Below are positions 23,994-49,374 of a stretch of DNA of 64,000 bases, piece after piece (the stretch's first letter is position 1; every line of letters starts with the position of its first letter). Origin of the DNA: a virus (taxonomy: Duplodnaviria > Caudoviricetes); IMG/VR virus record IMGVR_UViG_3300037692_000137, positions 96,001 through 160,000 of that record; one strand, written 5' to 3'. The notes below the pieces were generated by a model that saw only the letters and a program-made list of their open reading frames with translations, ran no database searches and had not been told where the DNA came from. Position numbers and translations under genes: made by a program.

Positions 23994-26900
23994 TTAACCT
24001 ATATTCCTGTTAGCATACACTAGAGTCATTAAACGTTTTAATTGCCCATCAATTGATGTAAGCTCAAACTTTAATTTACTAATGTCTGTCCGTTGCCTAT
24101 TTATATAAGAGTCTATTAATTTTGAGTTGTTATTCAAAATATCTTTTTTAACTTCAGCTATACGTACATTTATTTCAGCCTGTACGTCCTTTCCAAAAGA
24201 CTCCTGTAAATTAGTAATTTTAGAGTCTATTATGTGTATTTGTTCATCAGTTTGTTCTTTAACAAAAGCTATGCTTTCCAGGGCTGTATCTAAAACAGTA
24301 CTATCCGCACCTACAGACTTAGTATTATTTATGGAGTCTGCTAAATTCTTAAACATGGCCTCTAAATTGGAAGTATCCAGTTTAACATTAGAAGAGTCCA
24401 AAGATATTTTATCTGGTATACTACTTATTACAGAAGTTAGTTTATCAGTAATACCGTTATCATCCAGTTTAACATCAAACACTTTGTCTTCTACTTTTAA
24501 GGGGGCTATATCAGCTAACTTTAATTCTTTGTCCTCTACGCGTAGTACTCTATCTTCTACTTGTAATTTTTTACTTTCATCCCAGGTTAGTACCACACTT
24601 TTCTGTTGCGCATTAGTAATAGTATTGGTGGTAAGTTCATTATTAACAAGCCCACCGTCCGCAAAGCGCCTTGGTAAAACCACTTCACCTTTCTCAAGGT
24701 AATGAGGTCCGGTAGATCTAGTAACGCCGCCGTCATGCATAATAGGCATGAATCTCCCACCTTCAGATTTCTTATTATCTTTAAAAGTGTCGCTTAAAAG
24801 ATTACTAGTTTTATCTAGGGAGCGGGCTTTAAAATAATCATCTATCATAGTTTTAATACGCGTTGGATTACCTTCGCTAATACCTTTAGCAGCTAAAGCT
24901 CTAAACTCATTTTCTGTTAATAAGCCCGCTAGTTCTTTTGGCACACTTTGTTTGGATACCACATTGCTTACGTAGTTCCAAAATTTGCCCATGTCGGTTG
25001 CACTAATATCAGCGCCAGCCATAGGCAGCATTGAATTTAACTGCCCTGCCGCATCTAACTCTATACCTCTGCCTATAGTGGATGTTAATGCTACACGCTC
25101 ACCTGCTCCCGCCAAAACTTGCCTTAGTGATCTTAGTGCTGGGCTGTCCTGTAATGTACTACCAGAAGCTACCAAATCATCAAACCTATTTAAGGATTGT
25201 CTTGCTTGCCATACGTATTCCTCTGGAAGATAACCAGGATTAGCTTTACCAGATTTTTTATCGGTACCATGGGATAACGCGTTACGCATAATAGTTGGAT
25301 CTTCCAGATAATTCCTAAGTTGTTCTACTTCTGTATAAGCAGGCCCTACTGCCGCAGTCATGCTAGACATTTTGGCGCCTTTATCTAAATAATTGGGTGT
25401 AAAAGTCATGGTATTTGTTTGCTCTTCAGTACCTATATCTTTTACTGCCAATCGTCTAACATTCTCCTTTATGTCACGTGTGGCAGTAAAATACTCTTCA
25501 GCTGCACCAACCCTACCGGCGCCATAGGAATCTCCAAAAGCAGTTTTTCTTTCTACCATTTGGGCCATAAGTTGCTGCTCTTCAGGAGATACTCTTGAAG
25601 TAGTATTGCCTAGTAACGCCTTGGTTTGTGTGCCTTTTCTTAGTTGTTCTTCCTCATTTAAAACAGAGGCTCTTGCTTTAGCCAGAGTTAATATCCCCTG
25701 TGTATCAGAGGGGCTAAAAGAAGTTACTTTTTCAGGTGGAACGTACCTTTCCCATGGCTCCCATTCACCTGTTACTGGATTAAATTTAGTAAGTGTTTTT
25801 TCTCCTGACAGCATCCTATATTTAGGAACGTCACCGCCATCCGCCATACCTGTTTCTTTCATGGCTGCTTCTAACTGTTTTTTATGCATGTAGATAGCAT
25901 CTTGTGCTCCAGGGGCAGAGAATACATCCGCCTGGTCATCGAACTTCTTTTTGTCCTCTTTTTTAGCCTTAGTATCATCCGTAATTACGCTATACATTGC
26001 TGCTCTAAGTCTATCCACAACACTACCACCATCAGCAAAACGCGCTAAGTCCTCTTTATCAGGGTCTTTGCCGGCCGCCTCTTTCATTGCCCGTCGGCGA
26101 GCGTCTAGCTGGGTTTTACCCTTAGCCTCTTCTGGTACAGAGGTTAACCAAGAGTAAAATACTTTTCTAGCTTCTGAGGCTATACCACCATCAGCAAAAC
26201 GGGATAAATCCTTTTTATCAGGGTCTTTGCCGGCAGCCTCTTTAAAGGCACGGCGGCGGGCGTCTAGCTGGGTTTTACCTTCATCCTCTTTAGGCACTGA
26301 TGTTAGCCAGGAGTAAAAAGCCTTTCTAGCATCAGAGGCTATACCACCATCAGCAAAACGGGATAAATCTTTTTTATCCGGATCTTGCTCTATAGCCTTT
26401 CTTAATTCGTGCCTCTTAATATCCAGTGGTTTTTCATCCTCGGTTCTAGGTTTAGGGACATCGGTAAGCCAACTATAAAAGCCTTTACGTAGACTAGCTG
26501 TGATACTACCACCTTCCGCTAATACAGGTATAGTTCCTTTCTTATTCATATGGTCTAGTGTGTCATAACCCAGTTTCTGAGCGGCGTGGGCGCGTATCAC
26601 GTATTCCCCTGGACTAAGCATAGCTGGAACTTTGTCCTCTCTTGGACCGCCAGGGCCAGTAATGTGACCACCAGCGGCTTTCCCAATGGTAGTAGTAGGT
26701 ACAGACTCAGCGGGGTTTTCACCTAAGGCTTTATTTAATTCTTGCAGTTGTGTTGTATTATTGTAAAGCGCTTTTATCTGTGCGTCAAAATATTTATCAT
26801 CACCTAAATGTAGATTCTCTAAATCAGGTAAATTCAAGGAGGGTTTTTCAAAAACATTGCCACTAGCTGCAGACTCCTTCTCTGCTTTAGTAAGTAAATC

Positions 26901-29900
26901 GTTAGTATCTTTTAAAGCCAACAAGTAGTCTACTTTAGGTTCAGCCATGGAGTATGCTTTTGTGCCAGCCGCAGCAAGCATTGGGGAGGCTGTTAAAAGT
27001 GGTCCAATAGTAGGCCCAGTAAAATAGCTAGCTATTGCGGAAAGTGCCTCAGCGTTAGATATAACAGCCGCAGCACCGGCAACCCCTGTTAAACCTATAG
27101 CCGTGTCTGCTGCAACGTTACCTGTATATTCACCAGTTGGTTTATTTCTTGCATTTCGACGTTCTTGTTCACTAATAAACATAGCTTGTCCGGCAGCAAA
27201 CTGGGCTATCCTAGCTTTTATTATTGGGTCATTAACCTCGAATCCTTGTTGCTCGGCCATTTTTGTGCCAATAAAAGTAGCTTTTTCTTTAGTTGCTTCT
27301 TTCTGTGCTGTCACTGGGGAAACAACGTTAATATCTTTAAGAACTGCTCCGGCTGCTTTACTAGCCAAATTAACAAGGGTGTTACCCAAAGCCTTATTAA
27401 ATTCTACAATTATTGGTACTGTTTTACCTAGTTCTGTATATAAGTCACCGGTGGGCACTGAAAGAGTAGCTAAGGCCTTATCAGCTGCCAACATACCCGC
27501 CATAGAATTTTGTTCCACCTCCTGCAGATACTTTTGTACGGGTGATTTAAGGCTCGGTGTTTCTATAGTTGGGATTATTTTATCTGTTTCTCCAGAAGTT
27601 TTAAATAACTGTTTTAATTCTTCCACAGGAACACCCATTTTTTCAGCTAATTTTTCTAGTATTTTTTGTATATTAACCAACTCTTTTACTACTGGGTCGG
27701 AAGTGATTAACGATTTTTCAAGATCGTGCTGTATTCTTGCAAAACCCTCTTTAACTTCTGGTGTTACTGCTACTGCTCTAGTACTTTCTGCCATACCACC
27801 AAATTGAGACATGTACCTTTGGTACTCTATAGTACCTTCACCGTACTGGGCTTTGGCTTTATCTTTAAGTTCTCCAATAGTAGTTTCTGATTTTATGAAG
27901 GCTGCCTGAGAATTTTTAAGCTCCTCTAGTTGTTTTAAAGAATTAGCGTAGTAAGTCTTTGTACCATCATCCTCGTTACCAAAAGATATCTTTTCAATTA
28001 ACGTATCTTCCATAGAGTTTATAGCGGAAACCATGGTGTCCAAACCTTGAAATTGTTTAACAAGGTCTTGTTCTTCTCTTACTCTTGTCTTTTCTTGTGG
28101 CATATAAGTTATTTGATCAATAACTTTCTGAAGATCATTACCTTTAAGATTACTAGAAAATAACTGAGTGTATAAGTCAGCCGTTCTTATTTCAAACTCA
28201 TCGGCGAACTTACCTAAGAATACCCCTCCATCCATTAAAGCACCCATTTGCTGAGTTGGTGTAACCATTCTTTTAGCAAAAGGGCCGCTGGCGCCAACCA
28301 AAGAGTCCATAGCTAACTTAAGATTTCTAGTACCTTCTAAACCCGCACTAAACCCCTGCACACTTAATGATTTAAAGCTTTCATTAAACGCCCTCAAACT
28401 TTTGCCTGTATCAAATAAGGTCTGTGTAATACTTCCTAAAGCTGCCATGCTGTCTTTAAGTGTTCCAAAGTCCTCTGTTAAAACAGATATCTCGTCACTT
28501 AATTTTAGTATCTCTTCTTTATATTCTTTAGTTTGAACAGTCTCTTTATCGCCGGCGTCTAATAGTTTCAGTCTGACATCTGCTATTAATTGCTCTCTAT
28601 CAGCTATTTTTTTGCCTACACTTTCTGTTAATGCCTGGGTAGACTTTAGTTGATCTATTGCATTCTTTGTTGGACCTTGCGCTGATTTAAAGAAGTACTC
28701 TTGATCACTTAATTCGGCATCTTTACGTTTAAATTGTAGATCACCTCTAAAACCAGATAATTCAGGATTCATGGCAGCAGTCATTGATGTTTTAGATTGA
28801 GAAATTGATCTAGTGATGCTAGAAAAATCTTCAACTAATTCGGTACTGGCCCGTTCAGACCTAGCCTTCTTAAAGGCCCCTTCAATTATTACAGGATCTA
28901 GATCTATTTTTATATTTTTTATCTTAGAGACTTGTCCTTTTATAGAGCGCTCATACTCATCTATTAAGACGTCCACATTTTTAAGACGTTTCTTTTCTTT
29001 ACCACTTAAACCCACCGTTTTATCTAGAGCCTCTAACTCCTGTTTTTCTACATATAATTCAGTAAGTTTAGATTGCATAAGGTCTGTTTTACTCTGTGCT
29101 TTTTCCAACTCTTTAAAAGAAGTTTCTACTTTTTGGTATTTATTTGTTGTAAATATTTTGCCAATATCCAAACCTTTTGTTGCCCCAGGTGCTGTTTCTG
29201 GTTTAACCATAAAAGAAAATAACGACTTAATTAACGCAAAAGGAGAAGACAGCTTTTTAAGATCTAATAAACCCTTAGACGGATCTTGTATAGAACCTAA
29301 AGTATCTACTAGTGTACCGATAGATTCAAAATTTATGTCTTTAGCAAATAGGTCTAAATCTGTGAATATTCTTCCTAGATTAGTAAAAAAGTTTTTTCCT
29401 CCTTCAGAAAATGTTTTAGCTCTAGATATAAGCTCTGTGTCTTGGAATACAAGGTATTGTTCTGTAGACATGTCACGTGTACTTCTAACACCTAAGTCAA
29501 CCTGTGGTGGGTTATATTTGCCTGATAATAAGCCACCTGGTTGTGGTGTAGCAAAGTTACTAGACCAGAAGGAAGGTCTAAGAAAACTTTTTACGCCGTA
29601 TGCCATTGTACCAGATACTAATTCACTAAACCTATTTTTTGCATTTGCTGTTATCTCTACATTAGCTATAGCAGTTGCCATGTCATCTAATTCTTTTTTC
29701 AGTTCCTCAGACATCTCAAGCTTAAGCATCTGTTCTTGCATAGCAGACACTTGCTTATTTATGATTTGGGTCTGTTGCTTATAGGTCTCTCTCATGTCCT
29801 TTACAGCTTGTTCTACTTTTTTCTTCTCGGCGTCAACATCTAATACTTTAGATTTCACCTCTGTCCCTTGAAGTACCTCGACAGCTGTTTTGCTTTTAAT

Positions 29901-32900
29901 ATTCTGTTCATTAAGTGCATCAAATATTTTTTGAGCAGATGTTGTATTTTTTTGTATCAACTTTGATATTAAAGCAGATTCTGCCGCTGACTTTTTAGAC
30001 GCAGTGGCTATCTCTGTAAGTTTTTCATTGCTTTCTGCTAAGTAGCCTGCCATAGTAGCAGCAGCTGTTGTAGCTAGTATCTGTGCTGGCCTATTAATGT
30101 CGGGGCCTGTTATTGGGCCACCAACAGCGCCTCCCGATGCAAATGCAGGTAGTTTACCATGTTCGTTCATATAGTCTAACTTACTTTGGCCTAAATACTT
30201 GGCAGCATCAGCATTGATTATGTATTCGCCATTACTTACCTTAGCTAATATGTCATCTGATGTACCAGTGCCTTCACCGGTTATTAAACCACCGGCAGCC
30301 ATTTTCATGGTTGTGCCCGCCCCAAATACTCGGCCGCCGTCTGAAAAACCATACTGGGACTTATTTTTCTCATAGTCGGCGTAAAATGTTTTTTCAGCCC
30401 GTTTAAGCTTTATGGCCTGTAACAAAGAGGGTGCCTCGCCAGTATTTGCCACACCTGTTGCTACATCTTTTAATATTTTACCATAATTCTTGGTAGCTTC
30501 AGAAAGGTCTGTTCCTAGTAGTTTGCTAAAGGTTAGTATCGCAGCATAAGTAGCTACAGTACCTGCACCTAATTTCTTTATAGTGTCATCAGCAAAACCT
30601 AAACTTTTAGCAAACTCCATGATGGCTGTTTTTGAAGCAGTCATTGTAGAAACAGCCCCATATAAAGTAGCTTTAGTTGTAGTGTCCTCTTTAGAGGCTG
30701 TAAGTGTTTTCTCTTGTGTTTTTAAATCATCTATTAATCCTTTATTTTGATTAACTTCAGGCTTAGCTTCTTCAGCTGCCAGTTGTGCTTTTAATATCTG
30801 AAGCTGCTCATCTAATTTTTTAACTGTTGCATTTTCTCCAGCTTTTTGAAAAGCAGCGGCAACACTTGCCGCAGCAGTAGCCTTCATTACAGTTTTATCG
30901 TCTATCAATTGTGGTTTTTGATTAGCCGTTTGTAACTTATTTATGGACTCTACATCTGCGATAAATGATGGTTTATTTGGCACAGTTTTTAAACCAAACC
31001 ACTTGCTCTCTTCTGGTATAACATCTTTTATTTGCGTTACAAAATCATTGAAATCAAGGCCAGAAAACATACGCTGTGAAGCTTCTGTTGCTGTGTAGTT
31101 TTTGGCGCCGAATACATTCTGCCCACCTATCTCTTTAAGAGTTCTATCAACACCTAATTGAGATGTTAAATTTTTAGTCATAACATCAAGTACTTTATTA
31201 GCCGCTATAACCATATCTGGATTACCAGCTGAGGAAGCCCTATCACGCATTTCAGCAACACGCTCTAACCCAGTTAACAAGTCTTGTGGTGAACTAGCCG
31301 ACATGTATTTTTCAAGTTGTTTATCTAAATCACCTGGGCTACCTAAAGCCATTAGAATATCTTCAAGCTTAGTAACGGTATCAGCGGTATTAGTAGCTAC
31401 TCTAGAGGTCTCAATTTTTAATTCTGCGTAACCTGTGTCACCTGTTCTAGCTACAGTCTCTGTAAAGTTTTGCATTTCATCTTTAGTTAAAACAGATCCA
31501 AACCCTTTTGACACTGCGGCTATACTGTCCAAGGCCACAAGAGCTTTATCTGAAGAGTAGATACCCTCCGCAGCGCCCTGCTTTCTTATGTCTAGTTCTT
31601 TTAATTGTGCGGCCAAATTTCTGTAGTCTTCAGATCCAATTAAAGTACGTTGTTGTACAGTTAGATCTTTATACTTAGCGCCGCCTGTATCAAAAGTGTC
31701 TAGACCCTCAGAAATACCTTTTAAATAGCCCGCAGTACCTTTGAATACTTCTTGACGGCTACGTTCAACAGATATATTTTCTTCTACTACCCTTTTACCG
31801 GCTTCGAATGTTTTAGTTAAATCCGCCAATACAGCCCTGTATTGCATTACCACTTGATTATTTTTTAATATAGTAGTAAGGTTTTCTAGTTCTTTATACA
31901 GGTCGTTGGCTATGGTAACGCTACTATCATCTAATCCCTCTATTTTTAATTTATCTAAGTCTTCCATATAACTTCTAAACTTAGTCATGGGCTTAGCGTA
32001 GTATTCCTCAAAATCTTTTTTCCAAGATTTTTGAAATGGGGACTCACCAAAGTCTTTACCTGGGGTGGCGGTGACTGTGGGGGTATACCCTTTACCTGAC
32101 TGTAACAGCGTGGTAGTGGCTACGTCACTAAAAAAACGCTCCCCTAGGTCAAACTCTTTTTTGAAATCTTTTGCTGATATAGCTCTAATACCTGCTCCGG
32201 CGCCGGCTACAAACTCGTTAAGTATTTCTATTTTGTCAGTTAACTCATCTTGTATATGATTAGCTGGGAAAATATTCTCAACCAGTTGTTGCATGTTTTT
32301 ATCAAAAGAGCGTTCTTCCACCTTTAATGTTTTTGTATTAAAATACTGTGCTACCCATTCAAACACACCATCAGAAGTTTCTTTAAGTTTAACTATTGCC
32401 TGTTTACCGGCCATATTGTACTTTGCTGTTACATCATCCATAAAGAGTACTATATCATTATTAAGCACTTTACCCTGACGTTCAAAAAGGCCGGCAGACT
32501 CTAGTTTACCCTTAGTTAACTCTTTTGTAAAACCCAACGACTTAGCTTCGGGTAAAGCTCTTTGCATAACTGTTTGGCCTAAAACATCCTGCCAATTAAT
32601 TTTACCTTTAAGGGAGGCCACATTTAGCCTGGGCTCCATATTTACAATAACATCATAGCCTTCTTTTAATCTAGGATCGGCAAATATCTTGGCAACCTCA
32701 TTTGGGTCTAGGCCCTTAGTATTAATATTACCTAATACATTACTAAATTCTTTGTAAGTAGATGCGTAGTCAGTTCTAAGTGCCTTTAAGGCTTCTTGGT
32801 ATTTTTTAATATCTTTGTCAATAGCAGAGGACATAGGGGACTTTGCTTTTATTGCCAGTAACTTATTTAATTGTGCAGTTATGTCAGCAATAGCTTTGGC

Positions 32901-35900
32901 AGGTGCCACTTTAATACCTTTGGCTAGCATTTCACCAATAACAGGTATTTCACTGGCCATATCTTTAAGCATTTTTTTAGTATTTTCAGAGCCTCCTGTT
33001 TTAGTTAAATCTTCTATAAATTTAGAAGCTACGTCTACTTCGGACTCAGCTAATTGTTTGGTCTTAGACTTATCAAGCACTTTAAAGTAGTCAGCAAAGT
33101 TTGTACTAACTTTAAGCACCGCATTACCCACTTTATCATAGCCTAATACCAAGTTGCTGTTAGATTCTGCTAACTGATTTGCTAAGCTTATGACATCTTC
33201 TTGCGCTTTACCTAAAGTAACTATTGGCGCTTCATACGTACTTAAGGACTTTCTACGTTCTTGAACACCAGGATCTCTTAATTTATTTAAGTCCTCTATC
33301 TTATTTTGTAAAACATCGTAGGAAGCGGCCATATTTTTAATATTAGTGAGACTGTCCTCTTGAACGCTACGGGTATTGTACATAGAATCTGCGTAGTCTT
33401 GCGCAGACTGTGTCATTCTATGGTATTGGTCCCCTAATACTTTTATAGCAGGCACTAAAGCTGCTATTGTGGTCAGTAATGGGGCTACGGCAGCTACAAA
33501 TGATGTATCATCAGTAGCTAGATTCTCAGTTAACTTTTTGCCTATATCGCCCAGAGAGTCACCAAAACCTTTTACAGCCATACCCCCTAAATATGATCCC
33601 ATTCCAGCTACTTCAGCGCCCATGGCCAAACCACCAGAAACTAGTTTCTTTAAAGCCTGATGTATACCTAGTTCTTTTACTGTTTTTTCTACATCCTCTT
33701 TGGTCATACTATTACGTTTTCTAATGTCTGCTACGGTTTCACCTATACCAGCGGTACTACTAAGTTTGGTACCCACTGTTTTACCAGCAGATCCGAAGGA
33801 CGCTATACCTTTACCTGTAGTAGAAATGCTATCAGCAACAAAGCTATTAAATACTTTACCAACTTCTTGTAATTTAAAAGCCAGCTTACCAAAAGATGAA
33901 TGAAAGTCAGATAGTTTAACACCTCTGGCTACGTCTGTTTTTTCGCCTTCTGGGCCAGCAGTAGTAAATTTACCTAATGTCTTTAAACCAGCAGTGGCCA
34001 GTTTACCACCACCTAAACCAAACAGCTCATACTTAGTCTTAGCCAGTTCTTTACTGAACTGTGCTCCAGCGCCGGATATACCTAAAAAGTCTTTACCACC
34101 AGCAAGCATGTCACCTAAGGATTCAGCTAACTGCTGCCCTTTAGTCATATAGGCTAACAAGGTCACAAAAGCAGCTCCGGCAGCTTTAATTGGTGCGGGT
34201 ATAGCTGATAATGCCTCTAAAAATGTTTTAACACCGCTTAAGCCAATTTTAAACGCAGGGAGCGCTACTTTACCAATAGACATCTGCAGTTCTACTAAAG
34301 CAACTTTAGTTTGTTCAAGTTGTTTCCTATAAGTGCCCATTAATTCAGCATTACGCCTTTCTGCCGAACCTTTGGAGTTCATACTATCTTTGGTGGCTCT
34401 TAAAGCTTGGTCCCAGTTATCCATTAAAGCTATAAGAGAGTTGTATTGTCTAGTACCACCAAGTGCTTGGGAGGTGGTTAATTTTTGTGCATTGCTAAGG
34501 TCTTTCCATTTTTTGCTTAGGTCATCTAAAACATTAAACCCAGCCCTTAATTGCCCAGTAGGCTCCATAACAGGGATACCAAGTTTACCTAGTTGCTGTG
34601 GCCCTTTTTCTGCGGAGAGCCTACGTAAAATAAATCTAAGTGAGGTACCAACCTCTTTACCTGACTGCCTTGTAGTTGAACCTATAGCAGCTACAATACC
34701 ATTTAATTGGTCAAAAGTAACACCGGCAATTTTAGCTGCGGAAGCAGATTTTTGGATAGCGTTAGCTAGATCACCAGCAGTAATAGCGCTCTTGGCTTCA
34801 ACCTCACTCCAAGCGTCCAAAAAGCGCATGGCACTGTTGCCCTCTTCTTGATAAATTTTCATAGCTGAGGTTAACGCTTCAGTAGCTTCAGAGGCCTTTA
34901 ATGTTGTAACATTAGCTGCTAAAGTAGATACTCTAGTTCTATCAATAATTTCTGCTTGTGTTAAACCTTGTTGTGCAAAAACGTTCATGGATTGTAGTAT
35001 ATCAGTTACACCGACACCGTACTGTTTAGCAAATTTAACCGCTGCTGCCGATAATCCTTCAATATCGGCTGATAAAGGGTTTAACATCATTTTAAGAGTA
35101 GCCAAACCATATTCTATTTCGGATAAGGTGCTGATGGCTTGTTTAAGCTGAGCAAAACCACCATAAACTACAGAAGAAGCGGCACCCCATTTAACCGCAC
35201 GGCCTATTGCGCCCCTAAAACCGCTATTAGATCCCTGCATAGCGGCGGCTAAGTCTCTCTCTTTTATAGTTATATCGCTTAATGACTTACCATATTTAGC
35301 AAAGTCTACTACTACATTACGCACAATTTGACCGGTTTGATCAAGTACTTTAATAGGATACGATCTAACCTCACCTACACGAGCACCACCAGCCTCTTGT
35401 GGTTTCTCAAAATATTCTTTTACTTTCTCTACATTACTTGTATGCATCGCAAGCTGTTCTTTTGGTGCTAACCACTTAGGAACTGGCACGGCACCGGCCT
35501 CACCCCAGTCTTTATTAGCAGACTGATTTATCATGGTGTATGAGTTCTCTACCGATTTTAGATACTTTATGACAGTTTCTAAATTCTTCTTTTGGGCTGC
35601 TCCAAAATCGTCTGTTAAATTATACTTCATATAACGTTCGAGAGAAGCACGAAGCCTGCTTAATTTTTCTGCTAAAAGGTCAAAGTCCCAAGCATGCATA
35701 ACATCTGAGCCCATTCTAGTAAGCATCTCAGCGTTCTGCATCATGTCTACCATTTCTCTTTTAACATTGGACCCTGTTATTGTGGATACTGCTGTGCGCG
35801 CTTTTTCTACTGCAGGTGTCATGGTGTTATCTTTTTGTAAGTCAGCCACTATATTTTCAAACATAGCTTGCAGTTGTTTATCGTCACCCAAAGGTGTGGT

Positions 35901-38900
35901 AGATTTAGTAGCCAGTTCTCCTGGTGTCTGATAAACGTTTAGTCTACGTGCCATTTCTGGCATTACAAACTTTTTATCTTCTGTGTAAATGTCTGTTCTA
36001 GAACCAGCTACCCTACTAACAAACTTACGCATCCTAGCAATAGCAGATTGTGCTTTACCGTAACTTGCAGTCTCTGATTCAAAGTCTTTTGACGTACTGG
36101 CAGCTTCGTATGCTTTTTTAGCTTCTTTGGCCTGTGATAAATAGTAGTCACCTTCAGCCATTCTGTACAACTTCCAGGCTTTATTTAATTGTGCGCCGGC
36201 TTTACGTTCACCCTCAGGACCTCCTTGATCGGTAGCAAGCTGTTTAAATTTATCTGTTGCTGCTCTGAATTTATCCATATCAGGGCCGGTTTTGCCCGTA
36301 CCCCTAATTATGTCTGACAAATCTTTACTTACTTTTTCTAGATTATTAAGTTCTTCATCATAGTTAATATTACGTACCTGCCGTTGAAATTCTTTGGCAG
36401 CTGTATGAAACGTGATAAAGTTCTCCAAATCAGCCCACACATCTTTACCAGATGCTATTTTAGGGCTGTATAATTTATCTATATCACTAATTGAATCGGT
36501 TTCGTCAAGTTTAAACCCTTTAACTTTCTCTTCATTTTCTTTAGGTGTCATCGGTCTGTAAGAAGAGGTTCTTTGTCGCCCCCCACCAGCACTTTTAATT
36601 GACTCAAAATGTTTTGAGGACTCATCTAACATACTTTTTAAATCAGACTCACTTATGTTTAAAGGACTGGCCTTCTTTGCTGCATTCTCCTGTTCTTCTA
36701 AGCTACCGGTGGTTCTAAACTTACCAGCAAATCTTCTGGCTTTGGATATAGCATCTACATCTTTAGCCAGTAATGCTGGGTCTTGTTTAAACTTTACAAC
36801 TTCTGGTGTATCAGTTCCCTTACTAGTACTACTATAATAGTTAGCCTCGCCTTTAGAGGAGCCAATAGCTGACATATAAACATTTAATTGTGATGCCACG
36901 TCGAGCAGTTTATAGGCCGCGGCCAAACTAGGTTTATCCCCTTTTTCAATTAGTTTAGCATAAACCTCTGGAAAATCGGATGTGCCCGCAGCCTGTATAG
37001 CGACCCCTATGGCGTTTTTAACACCCTCACCTACTGTCTTTATATCTATGGGATACTTTTCACCTGTTGTTTCATTTTTCATTACAACATCTATGTGCCC
37101 AGTTATAGTACCGGCTTTTGTAGTTAAAGCTACAAATTGCTCTATCGCCGATGATGGGTCCATAGACATTATATCTTTTTGTATTTTAGCATGTATAGCT
37201 TGACCAACAAGTGCTGAGGCTTCTAAAAAGTCGTTTGGAACACCACCCTTTTCTCCGCGCATGGCTGCTACTATAGCGGTCAGCTGGCTACTATTTAATT
37301 CTTTTTCGGAGAAATCTTCTCTTTTAAAACCGCTTTTATACTCACCTCCGCCAGCTAAGGCGCTGGCCCGATACATTGTTTCGTATGTAGCCCCATTAAG
37401 TTCATTATTACCACCTGTTATTTGGTTGGACCATTTTTTAAGTTGTTCCACGTCAACAGCCGGCTCGGAGGCCATTTTAGTTTTAGAAGAAGGTGGTGTG
37501 TCCCCTACAAACAGCCCTATACCAGAAGCTATGCTTTGTAAATGTACATTTAAAGCACCGCCTGTAAAAGTAAAAGGGCCGCCAGGAACGCCTGCCCCTG
37601 GAGCACTTATTCCAGGAGTAACGGGTGGTGGTGTGCCACCTACAGAGCCAGTAAGATCCGCATCCATTATAGGAGATGCTACCTTAACTGCTTCTATACC
37701 GGCTGCTGAAGGATAGGCGGTACCCTTTGCGCTACGTCCCGAAGAAACAGGCGGTAACATAGCAGCCACATCCATACCTGAAGCACTTGAGGTCTTAAAT
37801 ACCTTTAAGGCCCTATCTAATGAATACAGTGACTTCATTTTTTCTGAGAATACTTTTACATATTCATCAACTTTGGTTTGCAGTTCTTCTGGGGTTAATC
37901 CTTGATCTTTAAATTTTGTTTCAGCTATCTTGCTAAGTTCGCTCTTACCTAATAACTCTATTTCTTGTAGCACTGAAGGCTCTACTACAGGTAGTCCAGC
38001 CAGTGTGGTATAGTAATCTACAACATCACGCATGCGCATTAGATCTTTAGCTGAAGATCTATCTTTAAATACCTGCTCATGTATTGGTGACATATCAGCT
38101 AGGTCACCAGTAGTTAATTCAGTAAGTTTACCTATACTGTCTTGTATTGACTTAACATCTAGCGGCTCATAATTAGCTATGGCCGCAGTTGCTGCCTGGA
38201 CGTCCTTCTGAGAATTTTTCAGCCTGTCTGCGGATGTCTTTACTAGTTCACCGTATGCCCCAGATCCGGATACTTCATATAGCTGATTGAGTTCATCCTC
38301 TAAATTGGCTGCTGTAGCTACTGCTTTTGCCATGCTAGAAGAATATCGGGCTTCTTCTTTTTTGCCATAAGACCCTGGCTGTAATTTAGCTATACCCACA
38401 TCTAAGTCTAATGAGCCCTTACCATGTTTACTAATGTAAGCACCAGCTTGGCTTTCTGTGGTAGCACCGGCAGTTCTAAACTTATATAAAGGGGCCTCTT
38501 TACTGGTTATGAGGCTTGAGGCTACCGCAGATGGACTTGACTCTTTTAGTCTACGTGTGTATTCTTCCTCGGCCGCGGCTTTAAGAGTATCAGGAGACAT
38601 CCCTTTACCTCTTGTAGCGGCTATTTGTTTTTGTAATGTATCTAGAGCCGAATTTCTAATAGACTGCTCTAACCGTGTTAGAAAGCCTCTAAAACCCATC
38701 TTGTCTACCATCTCAGCAGTAAACTTATCTATGTCAGATAAATCGGCGGTTACACCGTAGGCAGAGGCCATGCTTTGAACATCCTCTGTCATACCCTTAG
38801 ATAGCATACTATGTATTCTGTCTGTTATAGCCTGTGCGTCTGCTTTAACAAAGTCTTTAAGATCTTCATAGTCTTTGTTGTTTAAAACATTCTTATAAAC

Positions 38901-41900
38901 TTTTTCTCCGCCGCCTAGTTCCATTATATCTTTAGTGATGTCTGAAGATACTGATGCCGCGCCAGCATGTTTAACATCCATACCTTTTTGTAGACTAAAT
39001 CTGGTTAGCTCATTCATTCTAGATTGTTCGTCTCTAGAGAACTTCTGGTCGCCCTTGGCGCCTATTAAACTTGAACCGCCCGATACATCTTTATTATAGG
39101 AAAGACTTAGTCTAGTAAAAGCCTCTGTTTCAGGACCAGTGTGTATTTTAAATAACTGCGCTGCCACAGCAGACTTAGTACGCTCATTAGCTAGAGTAGC
39201 TCCGGTTTGAAACTTAAAAGACTTTTTAAACTTGTCATCTAGCGTCTCTACTACCTCAGCTATTTTATCTGCGTTATTTTTTAATTCATCAGCGTTGCTA
39301 AGATCTTTTATATTAGATACAGCAGTTTCTAGTTTATCGGCATCGGTTTTATCCAACATATTGCTTACTTGCTCTAATACTTTGTTTAAATCTTTAGAAT
39401 CCCCAGCCAAAGCTTGGAGTTGCTCTGATAAAGATAAAAAGCCCATATCTTCTGTAGCAAAAGGTTTCTGCATAAAGCTAAAACCTTTTTCTGTTGGGAA
39501 CTTTTTAGCAAAAGATTCACCCATTTCAGCCAGTGTATATTCTGAAGCAGGTGGTTGAACAGCGCCGTAAGTAAACTGGTCTCTAAACACTGATGCTGTA
39601 TCAGTCAAATCTTGAGTTAGTGTGTCGTAATGCTTTTTAATGTCATTTCTAGACTTAAGATTAATAGCAGAGTGGATTTCTATTGCGTCACCGTCAAAGT
39701 CTAGTTTTTGTTGGTGTGCTATATACTTGGGCAGTAAATTAGATATAGCCGCATTAAGACCATCTATCAAATCAGTTAGTTTTGCAAGTTTTTCAGGGGA
39801 GGCCGCAGCACCTTTACCTAATTCTGTTGCCCGCACCGTGGACAAAGATTCTCTCTGTTTTGTCACTCTCTGGATAACCCCAGATAAAGCATCCATAGGT
39901 AAATTAGGCATGCCAGGGACAGCTAGTACATTACTAGCCATACCACCCTTACCTTCACCCAATAATTTAGCTTTATATGGTTGTATGGATGAGGTTCCTG
40001 TAAAGGGGTAACGTAAACTCTCTATATAGGGGGCTAGTTCTTCCTCTATATACTTCTTTATGGTTGCTTTTTCTTCGGAGGTATTACCTTTACCTTGCAG
40101 GTCTTGCGTATAACGCAGCATGTCTAGTAAAGTGCCTTCTACCTTAGTAGCTGGAGCAGCTTCTCCTTCTTTTGTAAATTTCTTGGTGAAGGATACAGGT
40201 ATCTTTCTGGCTATTTCCGCAGGGACTCCAATTTCATGCTGGCCTAATATTGGCAGACCTAACTCACTTGTGCGTTTTAAGCGCTCAGAATGTTTTTCTT
40301 TTATGGACTGTGTTTGTTCTTGTAGTGTTTTTAAATATTTAATACTTTTTTCTGATATCCCCATCTCTTGTTGCATTTCTGGTGATAGGCCCTCTAAATC
40401 ACTTATGATGGCGGACATCTGTGTATCAAATGTTTCTAGATCTTTTGTCTTATCAACAGTGGCGGAAACTGCCTTAGCCATAACAGCTGGAATTTTTCTG
40501 GTAAACAATGTTTCAGCTACAGAGCCACTCTTGCCCAATGTAGTTTCAGCTAAAGTCTCTAAGTAATTTATTTTAGCTTTTTGTACGGCCGCTAATTTAT
40601 TATTCATCTCTTGTTCTAGCATACCCTTACCACCAGAAAAGTCTTTACTGATGGTATTTAGTTGCTCAAGTAAATTACCCTTTGGATCTGTTTTAAACGG
40701 TACTTTACCCTCACTTAATTGACTAGAAACAGTGGCGCCAGCATGTCTAAGCGATTTAAGTATAGCATTATACCTTTTTTCAGCATAGTTAGCTTGTGAT
40801 TGAACAACACCTTCCATAGAACTAGCGTAAGATTTATTCATAGATTCAGATAGGGCATCATTTATATTTTTCTTAAATGTGATCCACATCTGTTCTAGCT
40901 CTTTTACATATTTAGGATCGTAGGTAGATAGTCTTCCACCTTTTACCCTTATATCACTAGTGGTGGATAAAACAGAGGATTTCAACATACCGGCAGCAGC
41001 CTCTTTCATAACTGCTTCAGCTGTTTTACGAGAGTCTACATTTTTAGCCATGTAGTATTGTTCAGTATTAGTTACAAAATCTTGATAGTCCTTAGCGGAG
41101 TTTATTAAGTTTTGTAACACACGTGTGGGTTCCTCAGGACCAAACTCACCCGCTACCAACGGCTCAGGGTAAACACCTCTACCGGCCGGGGAGGGCACGT
41201 AAAAGTCCTCAAAAGCTGTGGGCTTTTGCCCTAGCTTAGCTTTAGAAGCATCTGGGGAAGGTAGTTGCAACATGAATGGTTTATTGAATTTCTCAACATC
41301 CATAACGGTACCAAGCATGCTGCGTTTACCCTTATCCAGTGTTCCAGTAGAGTAGTCAAAAGAGTTCAATTCGTCTACTGATACCTTATCCAATTTATTT
41401 CGTAAGGCACCTAAAACCTCTGAGTCTTTATTAGTATTGGCTATTAAAGTTTTTATATATTCCCAATGTTTTTTATCAGTATCACTCAACTGCTCAACAA
41501 GGTCCGCCTGACTACCAGCACCTTGAATTGGTGTTTGGTTTATTTCCTTCATCAACTCAGAATCTTTGCCAAACACATTCAGGTAAGCAGTATAAGCAGG
41601 CACGTTTAACTTAGCGCCTTTTACACGTTTGCGCACGTCGGTGGTAGACCATGCCTCGGTAGCTGTGGGTTCTTCTACTACCTGTAAGAATTTTTGACCT
41701 ACTAGACTTTTTCGTTTTTCTCCAAATTCGTCTATAACCTCTGAGTAGAAATTAGACATTTCTTCAAGAGCTGCACCACGCTTTGCCATTACGGCGGCTT
41801 GATCAGACTGCTTACCACGCTGCATAAATATTTTTGTCAATTCTTTTTCTGCTTTACCTGGGTCTGTTCCCTTAAAACCCAAGGCGGAACTATATGTAGA

Positions 41901-44900
41901 TAAGGACTCTTTGCCGCCACCAAGTAATTTTTTATACATGTCAGGATCAAAAGTGTCACGTAGTGTGGTATGTGCCTCATCTTTTTCCGAGGCTTTCTGA
42001 ACGTTAGCTACGTTGTTAAGTATTGTTTCTAATACCTCTGTCTGTAAACCACGTTTACCAGCACCTAAAGAGCTAATTCTAACATCGATAGGTTTTAGTT
42101 CGTATAAACCACCCTCTTTAATCATACTACTATATGTTTGTTTTAGGTTGTTTATGCCGTCTACACCGTCTGTTATAGCTATACCGATAGAGCTAAACAG
42201 CTCTTTGGCCTTATTGTATATATCTTGCTGTATTGTGGCCTCCTCTGGAACTGTCAACCCTGAAGTAGCATCTTTAAAATACTCTATCATAAACTTATTA
42301 CCGGAATTTATGAGTTGTGATTTTAGTCCTTCTACTTCTGATTGAGAAGCGCCAGATGCTGTAAGCCCCTCTATTTGACTATCTAGTAATTCAGCTGCCA
42401 ACTGTCCCATACTTTTAGGCATTTTGGCAGTACCTAAACCAGCGTTTACCTGCTCTTCACTAGTGAGCACTTTTATGTTTTTATCACCCCAAGTTTTAAG
42501 AATATCTGACATTTTAGATGTGTCAGTAGAGGTCATAGAAACACCTTTTGAACCAAAACGAGTAGTAAATTTTCTACCGAAATGATTCATAAAAACTTCG
42601 GCCACTTTTGCTGCCTGTACTTCTACATTCTCAGAACGTACCGTAGCCATACTTTTCTGTACTTCTGTAATAAAAGCTTTATCAGCCCGGCCTTTATACG
42701 TATTACTGACCCCCATCATATCTTGAAACTGGCTATATACTTTATTAATAGCGTCAGCTGAGTCTACATCTTTTAATACGCCTGGCTTAACATCAGATAC
42801 AGCCTCAGTACCTTTACCAGAAGTACTTAGCTCCTTACCGAGCATTCTACCGCCGGCGGCAGGTAAAACTAACGTCTTTGTTAAAGAAGTAACAGCATCA
42901 GCTAATTTACCAGATACAAGTATCTGGTCCTCAAAAGTACCAGAAGTGTGTCGTAGCTCCGCAGTTACATTGAACCCATAGCCCTTCTCACCATAACGAC
43001 CGCCTTCTATTAAAGATTTTTCACGCTCTGTTCTTAATGTGGGTGTTGTTGTGCCTAGACCCTTTACACGGGATACACCAAATTTATCAGTAAGCCCGTT
43101 TATCTCATCTATAGAAGAAGACATAGCGTTAGTAACGCCGGCTATGTTACGCCCCAGTTGTTGAAATTCACCAAAAGGTGCCATGCTTGTTAAGTCATCA
43201 ACAAACATTTTTATGTTAGTTCCACCTAGCGCTTTTAGATAAGATAACCCCTCTTCATAATCTTTGTTATCTTCATCTGCGCCTCTAACTTTATTAGACT
43301 TAAGATAGGCTATAGAGCTGGCCTGGGATTCAGGTATACCCAAAGAGGCTAGTTTTCTTCCTTGCGAGGGTAATTCCTGTAATCGTTTAACAATCAGTGT
43401 AGACTCCGGAGATTCTGTGGCTAGTTTAGCTAGCATATCTCTTTCAGCGTACATTTCTTTGAAACGTAGATTTAAGTCTTTAATATAGTTTTTATGCTCT
43501 TCTGGTTTTAACTCATAATCTCTCTCAGTAGGATATAGTCCTGGAGTACCTCTAGAAAGAAGATTAACCACGTTGGACTGTTGTAATCCTCGGCGAGGTT
43601 TGCCTGGTTCTATTAGAGGCATTAGCTGCTCTACTTGCTTTGTGGCACTTTCAAAGCCTCTGGCACCACTTTGGTATGCTGGTTTTTCTACTAATTTTTT
43701 AAGTGGTGCTTCTAAAACCTTACCATAGATATCATATATATTTTTAAATTCTACCTTGTCCAAAGCTTTAGCAAAATCGTATGCGGATACTTGGGCCGCG
43801 TTCATTATATTGACAAATGACATAACCTGTGTTTTAAGGTCTTTATTTGGATCAAGTGTAAACTGATCTATTTGCTTATTTATATTGGTTAATGTAGGCT
43901 GTATATCTAAGTCAGGGTCTATGCGTTTTTTCTGAACCATTGTTGAAACTGCGGCTGCCTTGTACCCCTCCTTAATACCCGAGAATTCCTTTGTTACACG
44001 GGCGTGCTCAGTTACTGGTGATTCATTTGGTTTAAAGGTGCTTATGTCAGCCAGTAACTTAGTTACCAAGTCAGATACAGCACTCTGCTCTAAACGTGTT
44101 TGTGGATTAACACCTATAGATTGTATTTTAGATGTGTAGTCTTCCTCGCGACGCAGCGTTCCGGCTTGTAAAGCTTTGCTATAGAGCTTCTCTAGACCTG
44201 TTTCAAACATGGCAAATTTAGATAAGGCCCTCTCTGATCCGTGTGCAGTTTCTAATATAGGGGTTCCGGAAGGAGTCATTCTAGCGGCAGGCAGTGCTAC
44301 ATTACGTATGTAGGGTGCAGGGTGCTCTCTCCTTGTGGTGTCTACGTCGGCTAGGCCTCTATTAACCTCAGCCACAGCATAGGTCTGTCTAGTGAGTTGT
44401 GTTAGAGGACCAAGCTGGCTACCTACTGCTTTTTTCACGCCCTCTACTAAATTGACACTACCTTTAGAAGTTTCATAAGCGGTTTTAAGATCAAGCAATG
44501 CTTTTTTAATTTCAGGATCTGACACAGTGGTCCAACCAGCTATATTTTCTTTTGACGCAGATTTCATCCATGTGGCTACTTTACTAGCCAGTAAGTCTGT
44601 ATTTTCGTCAGTACTTCCGCCATGAGTTATACCAGCCATCAATTTATCAAGTTGAAGTTCTTTAAATGCTGATACTATTTGGTTTGGATCTCCTGTAGCA
44701 GTTCTTTTACTTTTTGTAAGTTCCTTTTGCATAGACTTTATATCTGCTATCTGCATGGTCCACATCTTAGAGTTAGTCTGATTTAGACTATTACTTACAT
44801 TTGTAAAGTATTTGCTGCTTTCCGGAGCGCCGGGCATTTCTAAAGGCTTCCAGTCAGACTTACCAAGCTGCTCGGTAACTGTTTTAGTAATATCTTTTAG

Positions 44901-47141: not shown

Positions 47142-47220
47142 AGCTGTGCCTCCTAGGTAGTGTTACTTTGATCAATTAAACATTCTTTTGTTCATAATAA
47201 TAGAATGGTTACCTTATTAC

Positions 47221-48243
47221 TTAACTCCGGCGAGTGCGTTTTTTAATATCCGTTCTATCCTTTATTTTCTGGGCTTCTTTAGGTTTGTCATATTTTATAT
47301 CTTGATATAGATCATTAGACTGAGTAATTATTACTTCCTCTTTATTAAAGGCGGACATTCTACCTTTATTGGTCTTATTACTTTTTCTAGCAGCAGCCTC
47401 TTTTGTACGCTCATTATAGTAATCAGTCATATATGCATCTAATGCTTCATCATCATCTATTATACTGTCCGGGGGTCTGTCCTCGGGCATCATTTCATAT
47501 ATGTTAGAGTAGTAACTTGACCAATATATCAAATTCAACTGATCATTGGAGTATTCTACTGTAGGTATACCAAATAGGGCCTCATTAACTTTTTGGCTAT
47601 GTACATAACGTATACGCCATAAGTTGTGCCTTGCTATAAGCCTAATATTCTTCATTGGGATTCCATGATAAAAATGCAGAAAAGTATTCATAACTTTAAT
47701 CTTAAAGGCTATGTTTTTTTCTAACACCAAACTGTCAACGTTGTCCCAATAGTGCTTATCACCTTGTTCTGTGTAGGTGCAGGCCCAGCACAAGTAATTA
47801 TGCCTTTCTTCGTCAGCTTTTGTTTCGGCGGACATGACTAACCTAGAGTTCTTTTTATATTCTATTTCATTTATTTGATCTTTAATTTTATTGATAAGCC
47901 GTTTAATTCTTTCTGCATTAGCTTTTACTTTGGTGGTTTTAGACAGAAGCGCTTCTTGTGCTTCTAATTGTGACTTGAGTTTGTCAACTTTTGCTATGTC
48001 TTCTTCTGTATATAAACCACGCTCACTTAGTAACTGCTCTAGCTCAGTTATAGAGTACAACCCTTCACGGGTTGCTTGCTTATAGGCCCTCTCATAAACT
48101 AATGTAGCTCTAAGACGTATTTCAGAAGTTGGTTGCTTAAATATTAAGTATACATCTTCTGAACCTATAGTAATGTTTACTATTTCCTTTCCTGTGAAAA
48201 TCTTAAGTAGACAACTATCGACTTCTTCATAAGATAGTTCCAT
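47221..48243 (-). CDS. Putative tail assembly chaperone (paralog B), 340 aa
   Basis: Directly upstream of the TMP; shares PT.E..A..Y..Y..G..E..L..RG and E..AD..R..L with 48303..49061. Confidence 0.6.
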   Translation of the reverse strand: MELSYEEVDSCLLKIFTGKEIVNITIGSEDVYLIFKQPTSEIRLRATLVYERAYKQATREGLYSITELEQLLSERGLYTEEDIAKVDKLKSQLEAQEALLSKTTKVKANAERIKRLINKIKDQINEIEYKKNSRLVMSAETKADEERHNYLCWACTYTEQGDKHYWDNVDSLVLEKNIAFKIKVMNTFLHFYHGIPMKNIRLIARHNLWRIRYVHSQKVNEALFGIPTVEYSNDQLNLIYWSSYYSNIYEMMPEDRPPDSIIDDDEALDAYMTDYYNERTKEAAARKSNKTNKGRMSAFNKEEVIITQSNDLYQDIKYDKPKEAQKIKDRTDIKKRTRRS

Positions 48244-48265
48244 GCGTGGCCTTATATATAGTTAT

Positions 48266-48285
48266 GGGGCTGTATAAACAGCCCC
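48266..48285 (-). terminator. GC-rich hairpin between the two chaperone genes (possible weak terminator or attenuator)
   Basis: Perfect 8-bp inverted repeat GGGGCTGT-ATAA-ACAGCCCC; no clear U-tract on the minus strand. Confidence 0.45.
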
Positions 48286-48302
48286 TTACAACAGACAATT
48301 CT

Positions 48303-49061
48303 TTATTTGGACTTTTTGCGGACTACTTTTGGTTTTGATATCTCAGAGTCAATGGCTGCATTGTGCTCCTCAACAGCAACTTGTTCTTCTTTAAGTTCTC
48401 CAACAAGCTCTTCTTCAGCGGCTGCTTTGGCGGCTTCCAAGGCGGCACGTGCGCGCCCCATAAGATCCTCTTCTACTTCTTTCATAGCCACTGCTTCCGG
48501 TGATTTTTCCATAAAGTTTGAGTCCAGCCCTTGTAGAAATAGCATTACTTCAAAGCGAGATCTCATTGCTAAATCCTTATTCTTTGACTTTAGAAAAACA
48601 TCATAAGTCTCCCATACCCTTTTACCAGTAGCATCTTTGGTGATGCTTGAAGTTAGATGTTCCAATCTGGCATCATCAGCCATCTGTTCACAAGTATTTG
48701 ACAAGGGGCCATTTAAGCGTTGATTCCATTGGAAAAGTTCCTCTCTGGCTATAGATACCTCTACAGCTAGATTTCTCTTATCTTCCATTGTTTCTGCTGA
48801 TTCTAGCTGATCGATCTTAGAACGTAGGTCCATTATAAGCTCTTGAGCTCTTTGTTCAAACTCAGGACCGATGATGCCTCTACGCATAAGGATATCCTGC
48901 ATTTCTGCAGCAGTTGTTATGCCCTCTACTAAACACTTGGTATATGTTTTGCTGTATTGCCAATCGGCACCGCGGATGTCTTCTGCGGTGGGGGATGAGA
49001 TAAAATATTCAGTGGTGCCATCAGCACCCATGAATTTGCGGTCTACACTGTTGTCACTCAT
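48303..49061 (-). CDS. Putative tail assembly chaperone (paralog A), 252 aa
   Basis: Between the tail tube and the TMP; helical, acidic, with AAGGAG RBS. Confidence 0.6.
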   Translation of the reverse strand: MSDNSVDRKFMGADGTTEYFISSPTAEDIRGADWQYSKTYTKCLVEGITTAAEMQDILMRRGIIGPEFEQRAQELIMDLRSKIDQLESAETMEDKRNLAVEVSIAREELFQWNQRLNGPLSNTCEQMADDARLEHLTSSITKDATGKRVWETYDVFLKSKNKDLAMRSRFEVMLFLQGLDSNFMEKSPEAVAMKEVEEDLMGRARAALEAAKAAAEEELVGELKEEQVAVEEHNAAIDSEISKPKVVRKKSK

Positions 49062-49352: not shown

Positions 49353-49374
49353 TCCTTTAATCCTCCAAATATAT

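What the first reader, a model, noticed from the sequence alone, without database searches (positions are those of the whole stretch)
36840..37290. RecB/Cas4-like nuclease fused after the RNAP in the same ejected polypeptide
Seen in sequence: SSQL..GQAIH..E..GHID..DIKT..SQLNVY has the catalytic Asp, Asp and Lys and the QxxxY motif intact. It lacks the Fe-S cysteines of Cas4/AddB and is separated from the RNAP by a Pro/Gly linker (GGTPPPVTPGISAPGAGVPGG, ~37560-37660). Inference: the tail delivers both an RNAP and a nuclease at infection. Possible roles are genome-end processing, creating ssDNA entry sites for the RNAP, host DNA attack, or countering defence. I know of no described TMP-RNAP-nuclease triple fusion, but I could not search.
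Basis: partly seen in the sequence, partly recalled or inferred. Interest (0 to 1): 0.85.

Follow-up and report, generated by a model that had tools for sequence, protein, structure and literature searches.

The report
Optional nuclease cassette in giant tape-measure
A 7,715-residue tail "ruler" protein of an uncultured 234-kb phage carries, between its built-in RNA polymerase and its ruler part, an intact iron-sulfur-free Cas4/RecB-type DNA-cutting domain, which about a quarter of related phages lack; it is probably delivered into the cell with the DNA, but its target is untested.

Summary

- **Catalytic set:** H3317, E3334, G3348..D3351, D3366-x-K3368 and Q3418...Y3422 are kept in 82 of 82 homologous domains. 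dN/dS against the nearest relative is 0.07.
- **Position:** the domain lies after a DFDGD RNA-polymerase module and a single Pro/Gly linker, and before the PF10145 tape-measure core.
- **New here:** it is a discrete cassette of about 300 aa. 80 of 104 related RNAP-tape-measure giants have it and 24 lack it through clean in-frame gaps, which needs at least 11 changes on the tree.
- **Same genome:** it also encodes a separate, canonical four-cysteine Cas4-like nuclease.
- **Wider clade:** related cysteine-free nuclease domains sit in other tail-module proteins. One is Bacillus phage 0305phi8-36 gp145, annotated as a virion protein by mass spectrometry.

Delivery into the cell and DNA-end processing are inferred, not shown. 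I found no paper describing this arrangement. The scan has already noted the same arrangement in several other genomes.

The parts
23994..47141 (-). Single 7,715-aa ORF (TTG start). It is a giant tape-measure protein with no cysteine.
   Evidence: ORF list and translation. 141 Cys are expected from the rest of the genome and 0 are seen.
47149..47154 (-). AGGAGG ribosome-binding site, 7 nt before the TTG start.
   Evidence: Sequence read directly.
37662..44444 (-). RNA-polymerase module (about aa 900-3160). The DFDGD metal motif is at aa 2481-2485 (window 39687-39701).
37572..37664 (-). Pro/Gly-rich linker, aa 3160-3190. It is the only such stretch in the protein.
   Evidence: Composition scan and translation.
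36594..37481 (-). Nuclease cassette, about aa 3221-3516. This is the block absent from relatives such as P0108.
   Evidence: BLASTP: P0001 aa 3220-3517 has no counterpart in P0108, which is otherwise 56-61% identical. Four further pairs show the same gap.
36642..37376 (-). Folded PD-(D/E)XK nuclease domain, aa 3256-3500.
37089..37100 (-). Motif II, G-H-I-D (D3351, metal ligand).
   Evidence: G and D kept in 82/82 domains. Translation.
37038..37046 (-). Motif III, D-I-K (D3366, K3368).
   Evidence: D in 81 of 82 and E in 1; K in 82/82.
37140..37193 (-). Stretch from the GxAxH histidine (H3317) to motif I glutamate (E3334).
   Evidence: Both residues kept in 82/82.
36876..36890 (-). Q-L-N-V-Y (Q3418, Y3422), the QhxxY motif of RecB/Cas4-type nucleases.
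   Evidence: Q and Y kept in 82/82.
36900..37031 (-). Helical insert of about 44 aa between motif III and QhxxY. It is specific to the giant family.
   Evidence: Distant relatives match profile positions 30-122 and 157-216 and skip this stretch. Helices at model residues 117-171.
34455..35048 (-). Tape-measure core, PF10145 (aa 4032-4229).
   Evidence: Pfam E 1.8e-26. PHROG tape-measure families.
33432..34211 (-). Stretch holding two hydrophobic, membrane-helix-like segments (aa 4311-4329 and 4545-4570). A third lies at 27060-27116.
   Evidence: Kyte-Doolittle scan. All three lie C-terminal to the nuclease.

Best explanation
**Shown**
- Residues 3256-3500 of the giant tape-measure protein are a catalytically intact, cysteine-free member of the Cas4/RecB/lambda-exonuclease branch of PD-(D/E)XK nucleases.
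- The domain is carried as a self-contained cassette of about 300 aa, exactly at the junction between the RNA-polymerase half and the tape-measure half.
- The cassette is old in this phage lineage, co-inherited with the polymerase and under strong purifying selection. It has nevertheless been dropped cleanly many times.

**Inferred**
- The tape-measure protein is stored in the tail and expelled at infection. Its hydrophobic C-terminal half makes the channel, and its N-terminal half (polymerase plus nuclease) reaches the cytoplasmic side, where it folds without cofactors. That would explain why neither cysteines nor an Fe-S cluster are present.
- There the nuclease acts as a metal-dependent enzyme that needs a DNA end, like all its closest structural relatives.
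- The first free DNA end at that place is the leading end of the phage's own genome. I therefore commit to 5'-strand resection of the entering end. This would leave a 3' single-stranded tail that RecBCD/AddAB-type enzymes load on poorly and that can serve for annealing or polymerase loading.
- It is an accessory function, useful in some hosts and dispensable in others.

**Confidence**
- The figure of 0.4 is for the whole chain, including the resection step.
- That the domain is an intact nuclease of this family, I put at about 0.9.
- That it is delivered into the cell, I put at about 0.6.
For: **Fold and family**
- pLDDT 94.2.
- Profile E 8.8e-6 to 4ic1. PHROG 1706 E 4.4e-9. PDDEXK_1 is the only Pfam family that recurs, in 9 of 52 members.

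**Activity kept**
- The catalytic set is intact in 82/82 domains.
- dN/dS is 0.07 against the nearest relative.

**Cassette behaviour**
- 80 of 104 giants have it, with at least 11 changes on the tape-core tree.
- Clean in-frame gaps in five pairs, one of them 99% identical upstream of the gap.
- Pairwise identity correlates with the polymerase region, r = 0.86.

**Delivery**
- PF10145 core and hydrophobic segments lie downstream.
- P23-45 gp96 is a virion tape-measure protein with an active N-terminal polymerase, proposed to sit at the pore (PMC10770324).
- 0 Cys against 141 expected. P23-45 gp96 and 0305phi8-36 gp145 and gp146 are also Cys-free.
- gp145 carries a related domain (E 8e-41) and is annotated as a virion protein by mass spectrometry.

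**Not the phage's replication or recombination nuclease**
- A separate PDDEXK_1 gene with four Fe-S cysteines lies elsewhere in the genome.
Against: - There is no experiment on any member of this family.
- Nothing here shows that the N-terminal half reaches the cytoplasm or stays attached.
- 24 of 104 relatives do without the cassette, including near-identical phages. So it cannot be needed for genome entry or for the polymerase. That fits a host-specific or conflict role at least as well as end processing.
- A subclade adds a DEDD (RNase_T) exonuclease at the N-terminus. Together with a 5'-3' nuclease, this would suit complete destruction of linear DNA rather than controlled resection.
- The genome ends of this phage are unknown: the record is linear, has no terminal repeat, and is 89% complete.
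Confidence: 0.4

Rival explanations
1. Attack on foreign DNA. The delivered nuclease, alone or with the DEDD exonuclease of some relatives, degrades host DNA, resident plasmids, or the linear DNA of competing phages at the start of infection.
For: - Its accessory, repeatedly lost nature is typical of conflict functions.
- A subclade adds an N-terminal RNase_T/DEDD exonuclease.
- Related cysteine-free nuclease domains are fused to DEDD exonuclease or kinase domains in other phage structural-module proteins.
- The polyvalent-protein survey proposes host-DNA degradation for injected DNases (PMC5512222).
Against: - All close structural relatives need a DNA end or single-stranded DNA (established knowledge), and a circular chromosome offers none.
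- Only a few copies per virion are expected (inference from tape-measure copy number), probably tethered to the channel.
- The phage's own entering DNA would be the nearest substrate and would need protection.
Confidence: 0.25
2. Partner of the fused polymerase acting on RNA or on the template. It would cut RNA (5'-end processing, host mRNA cleavage) or open the template specifically so that the sigma-less polymerase can start.
For: - It lies directly next to the polymerase and is co-inherited with it, r = 0.86.
Against: - The QhxxY and GxxD motifs are those of the RecB/Cas4 group.
- 24 relatives, and P23-45 gp96, have the polymerase without the nuclease. P23-45 gp96 transcribes from defined promoters (PMC10770324).
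Confidence: 0.1
3. Not delivered. The domain would work only during virion assembly (for example trimming the DNA end that enters the tail), or would be cleaved off and never leave the producer cell.
For: - Processing of the giant protein is unknown.
- The cassette is flanked by flexible, low-complexity stretches.
Against: - The whole protein, nuclease included, shares the zero-cysteine composition of tail-lumen proteins.
- In P23-45 the N-terminal polymerase part is detected in virions (PMC10770324, Fig. 1e legend).
- gp145 of 0305phi8-36 is annotated as a virion protein by mass spectrometry.
Confidence: 0.08

Closest known systems
Cas4 (e.g. Sulfolobus SSO0001, PDB 4ic1; Pyrobaculum Pcal_0546, PDB 4r5q) and the Pfam PDDEXK_1 group (AddB, AdnAB, EXO5, MGME1)
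   Same: - Same motif order: N-terminal S-containing strand, GxAxH, E, GxxD, (D/E)xK, QhxxY.
- Profile E 8.8e-6 and 0.05.
   Different: - No cysteines, so no Fe-S cluster. The C-terminal Cys loop is replaced by helices.
- A 44-aa helical insert lies between motif III and QhxxY.
- Not linked to cas genes.
- Embedded in a virion protein.
- No Pfam model reaches its threshold on this copy.
Thermus phage P23-45 gp96, a tape-measure-fused virion RNA polymerase (PMC10770324)
   Same: - Giant tape-measure protein with an N-terminal DFDGD polymerase.
- Zero cysteines.
- Idea of a polymerase delivered by the tail.
   Different: - gp96 is 5,002 aa and has no match to the nuclease profiles. The paper reports none.
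- The family here has a much larger polymerase module and a PF10145 core.
- The two proteins show no detectable sequence similarity.
Bacillus phage 0305phi8-36 gp145 (ORF145, 'virion structural protein')
   Same: - Cysteine-free protein of 1,930 aa, encoded between the tail chaperonins and the tape-measure gene.
- It has a nuclease domain of the same subfamily (GTxxH, E, GxxD, DIKT, QQLNFY; HMM E 8e-41).
- Annotated as found in virions by mass spectrometry.
   Different: - No polymerase module.
- It is a separate gene from the tape measure.
- The nuclease lacks the 44-aa insert but has another one.
- The function has not been studied. The comparative paper held in the library does not mention gp145 or ORF145.
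Polyvalent proteins of phages and conjugative elements (Iyer et al. 2017, PMC5512222)
   Same: Large multi-enzyme polypeptides packed in the particle and delivered with the DNA, with modules gained and lost.
   Different: - That survey found only ParB-like DNases. [quoted passage not shown]
- It does not use the terms tape measure, Cas4 or RecB.
Lambda exonuclease / LHK-Exo / RecE (recombination exonucleases)
   Different: - No Pfam YqaJ match.
- No partner annealing protein next to it.
- Whether it forms a ring is not known.

Membership tests
PD-(D/E)XK nucleases, RecB/Cas4-like branch (Pfam clan of PDDEXK_1) | Alpha-beta-beta-beta-alpha-beta core fold | tested here: met
   [not shown]
PD-(D/E)XK nucleases, RecB/Cas4-like branch (Pfam clan of PDDEXK_1) | Catalytic D (GxxD), (D/E)xK, and an upstream E | tested here: met
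   E3334, D3351, D3366 and K3368 are kept in 82/82 homologous domains.
PD-(D/E)XK nucleases, RecB/Cas4-like branch (Pfam clan of PDDEXK_1) | QhxxY motif after motif III | tested here: met
   Q3418 and Y3422 are kept in 82/82.
PD-(D/E)XK nucleases, RecB/Cas4-like branch (Pfam clan of PDDEXK_1) | Match to the family model above its curated cut-off | tested here: not met
   This copy has no PDDEXK_1 hit. 9 of 52 relatives match, with best E 1.1e-4. Profile-to-PDB and PHROG 1706 matches are significant.
PD-(D/E)XK nucleases, RecB/Cas4-like branch (Pfam clan of PDDEXK_1) | Metal-dependent cleavage of nucleic acid | not testable with these tools
   Needs an enzyme assay.
Cas4 proper (CRISPR-associated) | Four cysteines binding an Fe-S cluster | tested here: not met
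   There are no cysteines in the domain or in the whole protein. The same genome's standalone nuclease has them.
Cas4 proper (CRISPR-associated) | Encoded with cas1/cas2 or a CRISPR array | tested here: not met
   The domain lies inside a tape-measure ORF in a one-strand block of divergent genes that I take to be virion genes. Apart from the tape measure, only one neighbour matched a PHROG family, and that was an HNH-type one.
Tape-measure-fused virion RNA polymerase (P23-45 gp96 type) | Tape-measure domain and polymerase in one ORF | tested here: met
   PF10145 E 1.8e-26. The DFDGD module is conserved in 104 relatives.
Tape-measure-fused virion RNA polymerase (P23-45 gp96 type) | Two-barrel polymerase fold | tested here: inconclusive
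   [not shown]
Tape-measure-fused virion RNA polymerase (P23-45 gp96 type) | Presence in virions and transcription activity | not testable with these tools
   No cultured member is known to me.
Lambda exonuclease / YqaJ family | Toroidal homo-oligomer around DNA | tested here: inconclusive
   [not shown]

The most novel reading that the evidence does not exclude
The polymerase, the nuclease and the tape form one self-contained entry machine. It would be stored unfolded in the tail lumen, which would explain the absence of cysteines and cofactors. After ejection the nuclease strips the 5' strand of the entering genome end, so that the sigma-less polymerase loads on the 3' tail and pulls the DNA in by transcribing it. 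More widely, cysteine-free Cas4-like nucleases would be a recurrent class of tail-delivered enzyme cargo across unrelated phage lineages.
Probability: 0.15. Interest if true: 0.85.

Novelty: new variant of a known kind. Interest (0 to 1): 0.62.

Why it matters
Tape-measure proteins are mostly seen as rulers and channel formers, and one phage family is known to fuse a polymerase to them. This family would be the first case I could find of a tail-delivered protein that carries both a polymerase and a DNA nuclease. It is widespread in uncultured phages of up to about 325 kb.

- **Protein folding:** the cysteine-free, Fe-S-free nuclease shows how a normally cofactor-bearing enzyme can be adapted to passage through a tail.
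- **Testability:** natural pairs of near-identical phages with and without the cassette give a ready-made experiment on what an injected nuclease is for: protecting the genome end, recombination, or attack on host or rival DNA.
- **Annotation:** long cysteine-free ORFs in tail modules deserve a search for hidden enzymes.

Tried and rejected
- **Pfam on the domain alone:** nothing meaningful.
- **phmmer of the domain and of the polymerase region against PDB:** nothing.
- **tblastn of the domain against 50,697 phage records:** no match. Only the outgroup domain found cultured phages.
- **Homotrimer prediction of the domain (3 copies):** no verdict, score 0.01. This says nothing either way.
- **ESM Atlas look-ups of the polymerase core and of the stretch between nuclease and tape core:** they gave only tape-measure-like or unnamed clusters.
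- **Foldseek on the polymerase-core model:** nothing significant.
- **hhalign of the domain profile against the genome's standalone Cas4-like nuclease:** only the GTAxH motif aligns, so the cassette is not a recent copy of that gene.
- **Finding whole records of cassette-less relatives,** to ask whether they encode the nuclease elsewhere: failed, because the protein is too long for the look-up and there was no IMG/VR match.
- **Context look-ups of two distant relatives:** little returned.
- **Rejected, inactive relic:** 82/82 catalytic conservation and dN/dS 0.07 argue against it.
- **Rejected, the phage's ordinary recombination exonuclease:** a separate canonical gene exists, and no annealing-protein gene lies beside the cassette.

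Full report
**What is there**

The window holds one 23,148-nt ORF on the minus strand (23994-47141; 7,715 aa). It has a TTG start preceded by AGGAGG at a 7-nt spacing. All neighbouring genes lie on the same strand. The record is an IMG/VR virus contig of 234,228 bp with 38% G+C. It is linear, and CheckV estimates it 89% complete.

The protein has a Pfam PF10145 tape-measure core at aa 4032-4229 (E 1.8e-26) and PHROG tape-measure matches. Three hydrophobic segments all lie downstream of that core.

**The observation**

The Pro/Gly linker (aa 3160-3190) is the only such stretch in the protein.

**What the domain is**

- **Sequence libraries.** Pfam does not recognise this copy. PHROG 1706, a Cas4-like phage exonuclease family, matches at E 4.4e-9.
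- **Relatives.** A profile search of 1.84 billion representatives found 103 proteins. About 45 of them are 6,400-8,000-aa giants with the domain at the same relative position.
- **Profile against solved structures.** A profile of 52 such domains hits the Cas4 SSO0001 (4ic1) at E 8.8e-6 and Cas4 Pcal_0546 at E 0.05.
- **Predicted structure.** AlphaFold2 on that alignment gives pLDDT 94.2 and pTM 0.90.
- **Pfam on the relatives.** Across the 52 members, PDDEXK_1 is the only family that recurs (9 members, best E 1.1e-4).

**Is it active?**

In 82 homologous domains, G3313, H3317, E3334, G3348, D3351, K3368, Q3418 and Y3422 are invariant. D3366 is D in 81 and E in 1. Against the nearest relative (87% amino-acid identity), dN/dS over the domain is 0.07. 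A relic would not look like this.

**No cysteines**

- The whole 7,715-aa protein has none. The other ORFs of the genome have 1.83% Cys, so 141 would be expected. Nearly all giant relatives have 0-2.
- The same genome encodes a separate 384-aa PDDEXK_1 nuclease (E 1e-23) with the canonical one-plus-three Fe-S cysteines. It is not a close paralogue of the cassette.
- P23-45 gp96 is also Cys-free, as are gp145 and the tape-measure protein gp146 of phage 0305phi8-36 (for gp146, the 2,380 residues inside the fetched locus). In the 0305phi8-36 locus every neighbouring gene has cysteines, and in P23-45 some do.

My inference is that proteins that travel through the tail lumen are selected to fold without disulfides or metal clusters, and that this is why the Cas4-type Fe-S module is gone. 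The P23-45 tail (800 nm for 5,002 aa; abstract) suggests that even the polymerase part counts towards tail length. That fits storage in an extended form.

**The polymerase premise**

**New point: the nuclease is an optional cassette**

- **Frequency.** A search seeded on the tape core found 111 giants. Of 104 that have both polymerase and tape core, 80 carry the nuclease and 24 do not. A relaxed search finds no trace of it in the 24.
- **Gaps.** The gaps are clean and in frame. P0108 is 56-61% identical to this protein on both sides, yet lacks exactly aa 3220-3517. P0165 is 99% identical to P0054 over 2,937 residues and then lacks a 299-aa block. Three more pairs behave the same way.
- **Tree.** On a tree of the tape core, presence or absence needs at least 11 changes, 7 of them forced by well-supported branches. 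The two deepest clades under midpoint rooting lack the cassette.
- **Inheritance.** Pairwise identity of the nuclease tracks that of the polymerase region (r = 0.86) and of the tape core (r = 0.70), much as those two track each other (r = 0.78). This favours old, vertical inheritance with repeated loss. The tree is unrooted, though, so it cannot prove the direction.
- **Other cargo.** A subclade also has an RNase_T/DEDD exonuclease domain near the N-terminus. The enzymatic cargo on this scaffold is therefore variable.

**Wider relatives**

The next-nearest proteins (about 170-3,000 aa) share the same motif set (RAS.LG, GTALH, E, GH.D, DIKT, SQLNFY) without the 44-aa insert. Most are themselves cysteine-free, and some add DEDD exonuclease or kinase domains. 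They lie on IMG/VR phage contigs. In one (L017) the 2,150-aa carrier follows tail-sheath and tube-like genes.

gp145 is 1,930 aa with 0 Cys, is encoded between the tail chaperonins and the tape-measure gene, and is annotated as identified in virions by mass spectrometry. The comparative paper on that phage held in the library does not mention gp145 or ORF145.

**How it probably works**

The shown parts are the fold, the intact active site, the position and the cassette behaviour. The rest is inference from tape-measure biology and from P23-45, where the authors propose that the polymerase sits at the pore made by the tape-measure protein and transcribes the entering DNA.

All close structural relatives need a DNA end or single-stranded DNA. 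At the channel exit, the first end is the phage's own. I therefore favour 5'-strand resection of the entering end, with confidence about 0.4. This would protect against RecBCD/AddAB-type loading and prepare a 3' tail. Because a quarter of relatives lack the cassette, the function cannot be essential for entry or transcription. Attack on host or rival DNA (0.25) remains a serious rival, and the added DEDD exonuclease in one subclade strengthens it.

**Comparison with what is known**

- P23-45 gp96 is the only published tape-fused polymerase I found. It has no such domain, by profile search and by the paper's text.
- The polyvalent-protein survey reports only ParB-like DNases and says no other DNase domains accompany them.
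- Six further literature searches found no description of a nuclease inside a tape-measure protein (one candidate paper read).

It is thus a new variant of two known kinds: tail-fused enzyme cargo and Cas4/RecB-type nucleases. The scan itself has already noted the same arrangement in several other genomes.

Noticed in passing
window 23994-47141: The 7,715-aa protein has no cysteine at all, against 141 expected. The same holds for nearly all giant relatives, for P23-45 gp96, and for 0305phi8-36 gp145 and gp146. Zero cysteine may be a usable signature of proteins that pass through the tail lumen.
   Followed up: partly
own genome G000:C1:72804-73958 (minus strand), outside the window: A standalone 384-aa PDDEXK_1/Cas4-like nuclease with the canonical four Fe-S cysteines. 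It is a useful internal contrast to the cysteine-free cassette.
   Followed up: partly
relatives P0037, P0040, P0050, P0150, P0153, P0156-P0160, P0163 (aa about 200-340): A subclade of the giant tape-measure proteins carries an RNase_T/DEDD exonuclease domain near the N-terminus, before the polymerase. P0157 has it without the Cas4-like cassette.
   Followed up: partly
window 51205-52611 (minus strand): A 468-aa protein in the structural block matches PHROG 559 'HNH endonuclease' very strongly (E 1.5e-113), and also a Mom-like DNA-modification family. It is an odd neighbour for tail genes.
   Followed up: no
window 26024-26386: A tandem repeat of 159 nt (53 aa) in 2.3 copies near the C-terminal end of the giant protein (FADGG...FYSWLT units). 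Recurring G-E-Y-V/I-I motifs occur elsewhere in the C-terminal half.
   Followed up: no
relatives P0054 and P0165: The two proteins are 99% identical up to the cassette site and only 71% identical after it. The junction between the polymerase half and the tape half therefore looks like a recombination breakpoint.
   Followed up: partly
window 13617-23989 and 47221-62108: Nine of the ten large neighbouring genes tested have no PHROG match at all. The virion module of this lineage is very divergent, and the tail type (contractile or not) could not be settled.
   Followed up: partly
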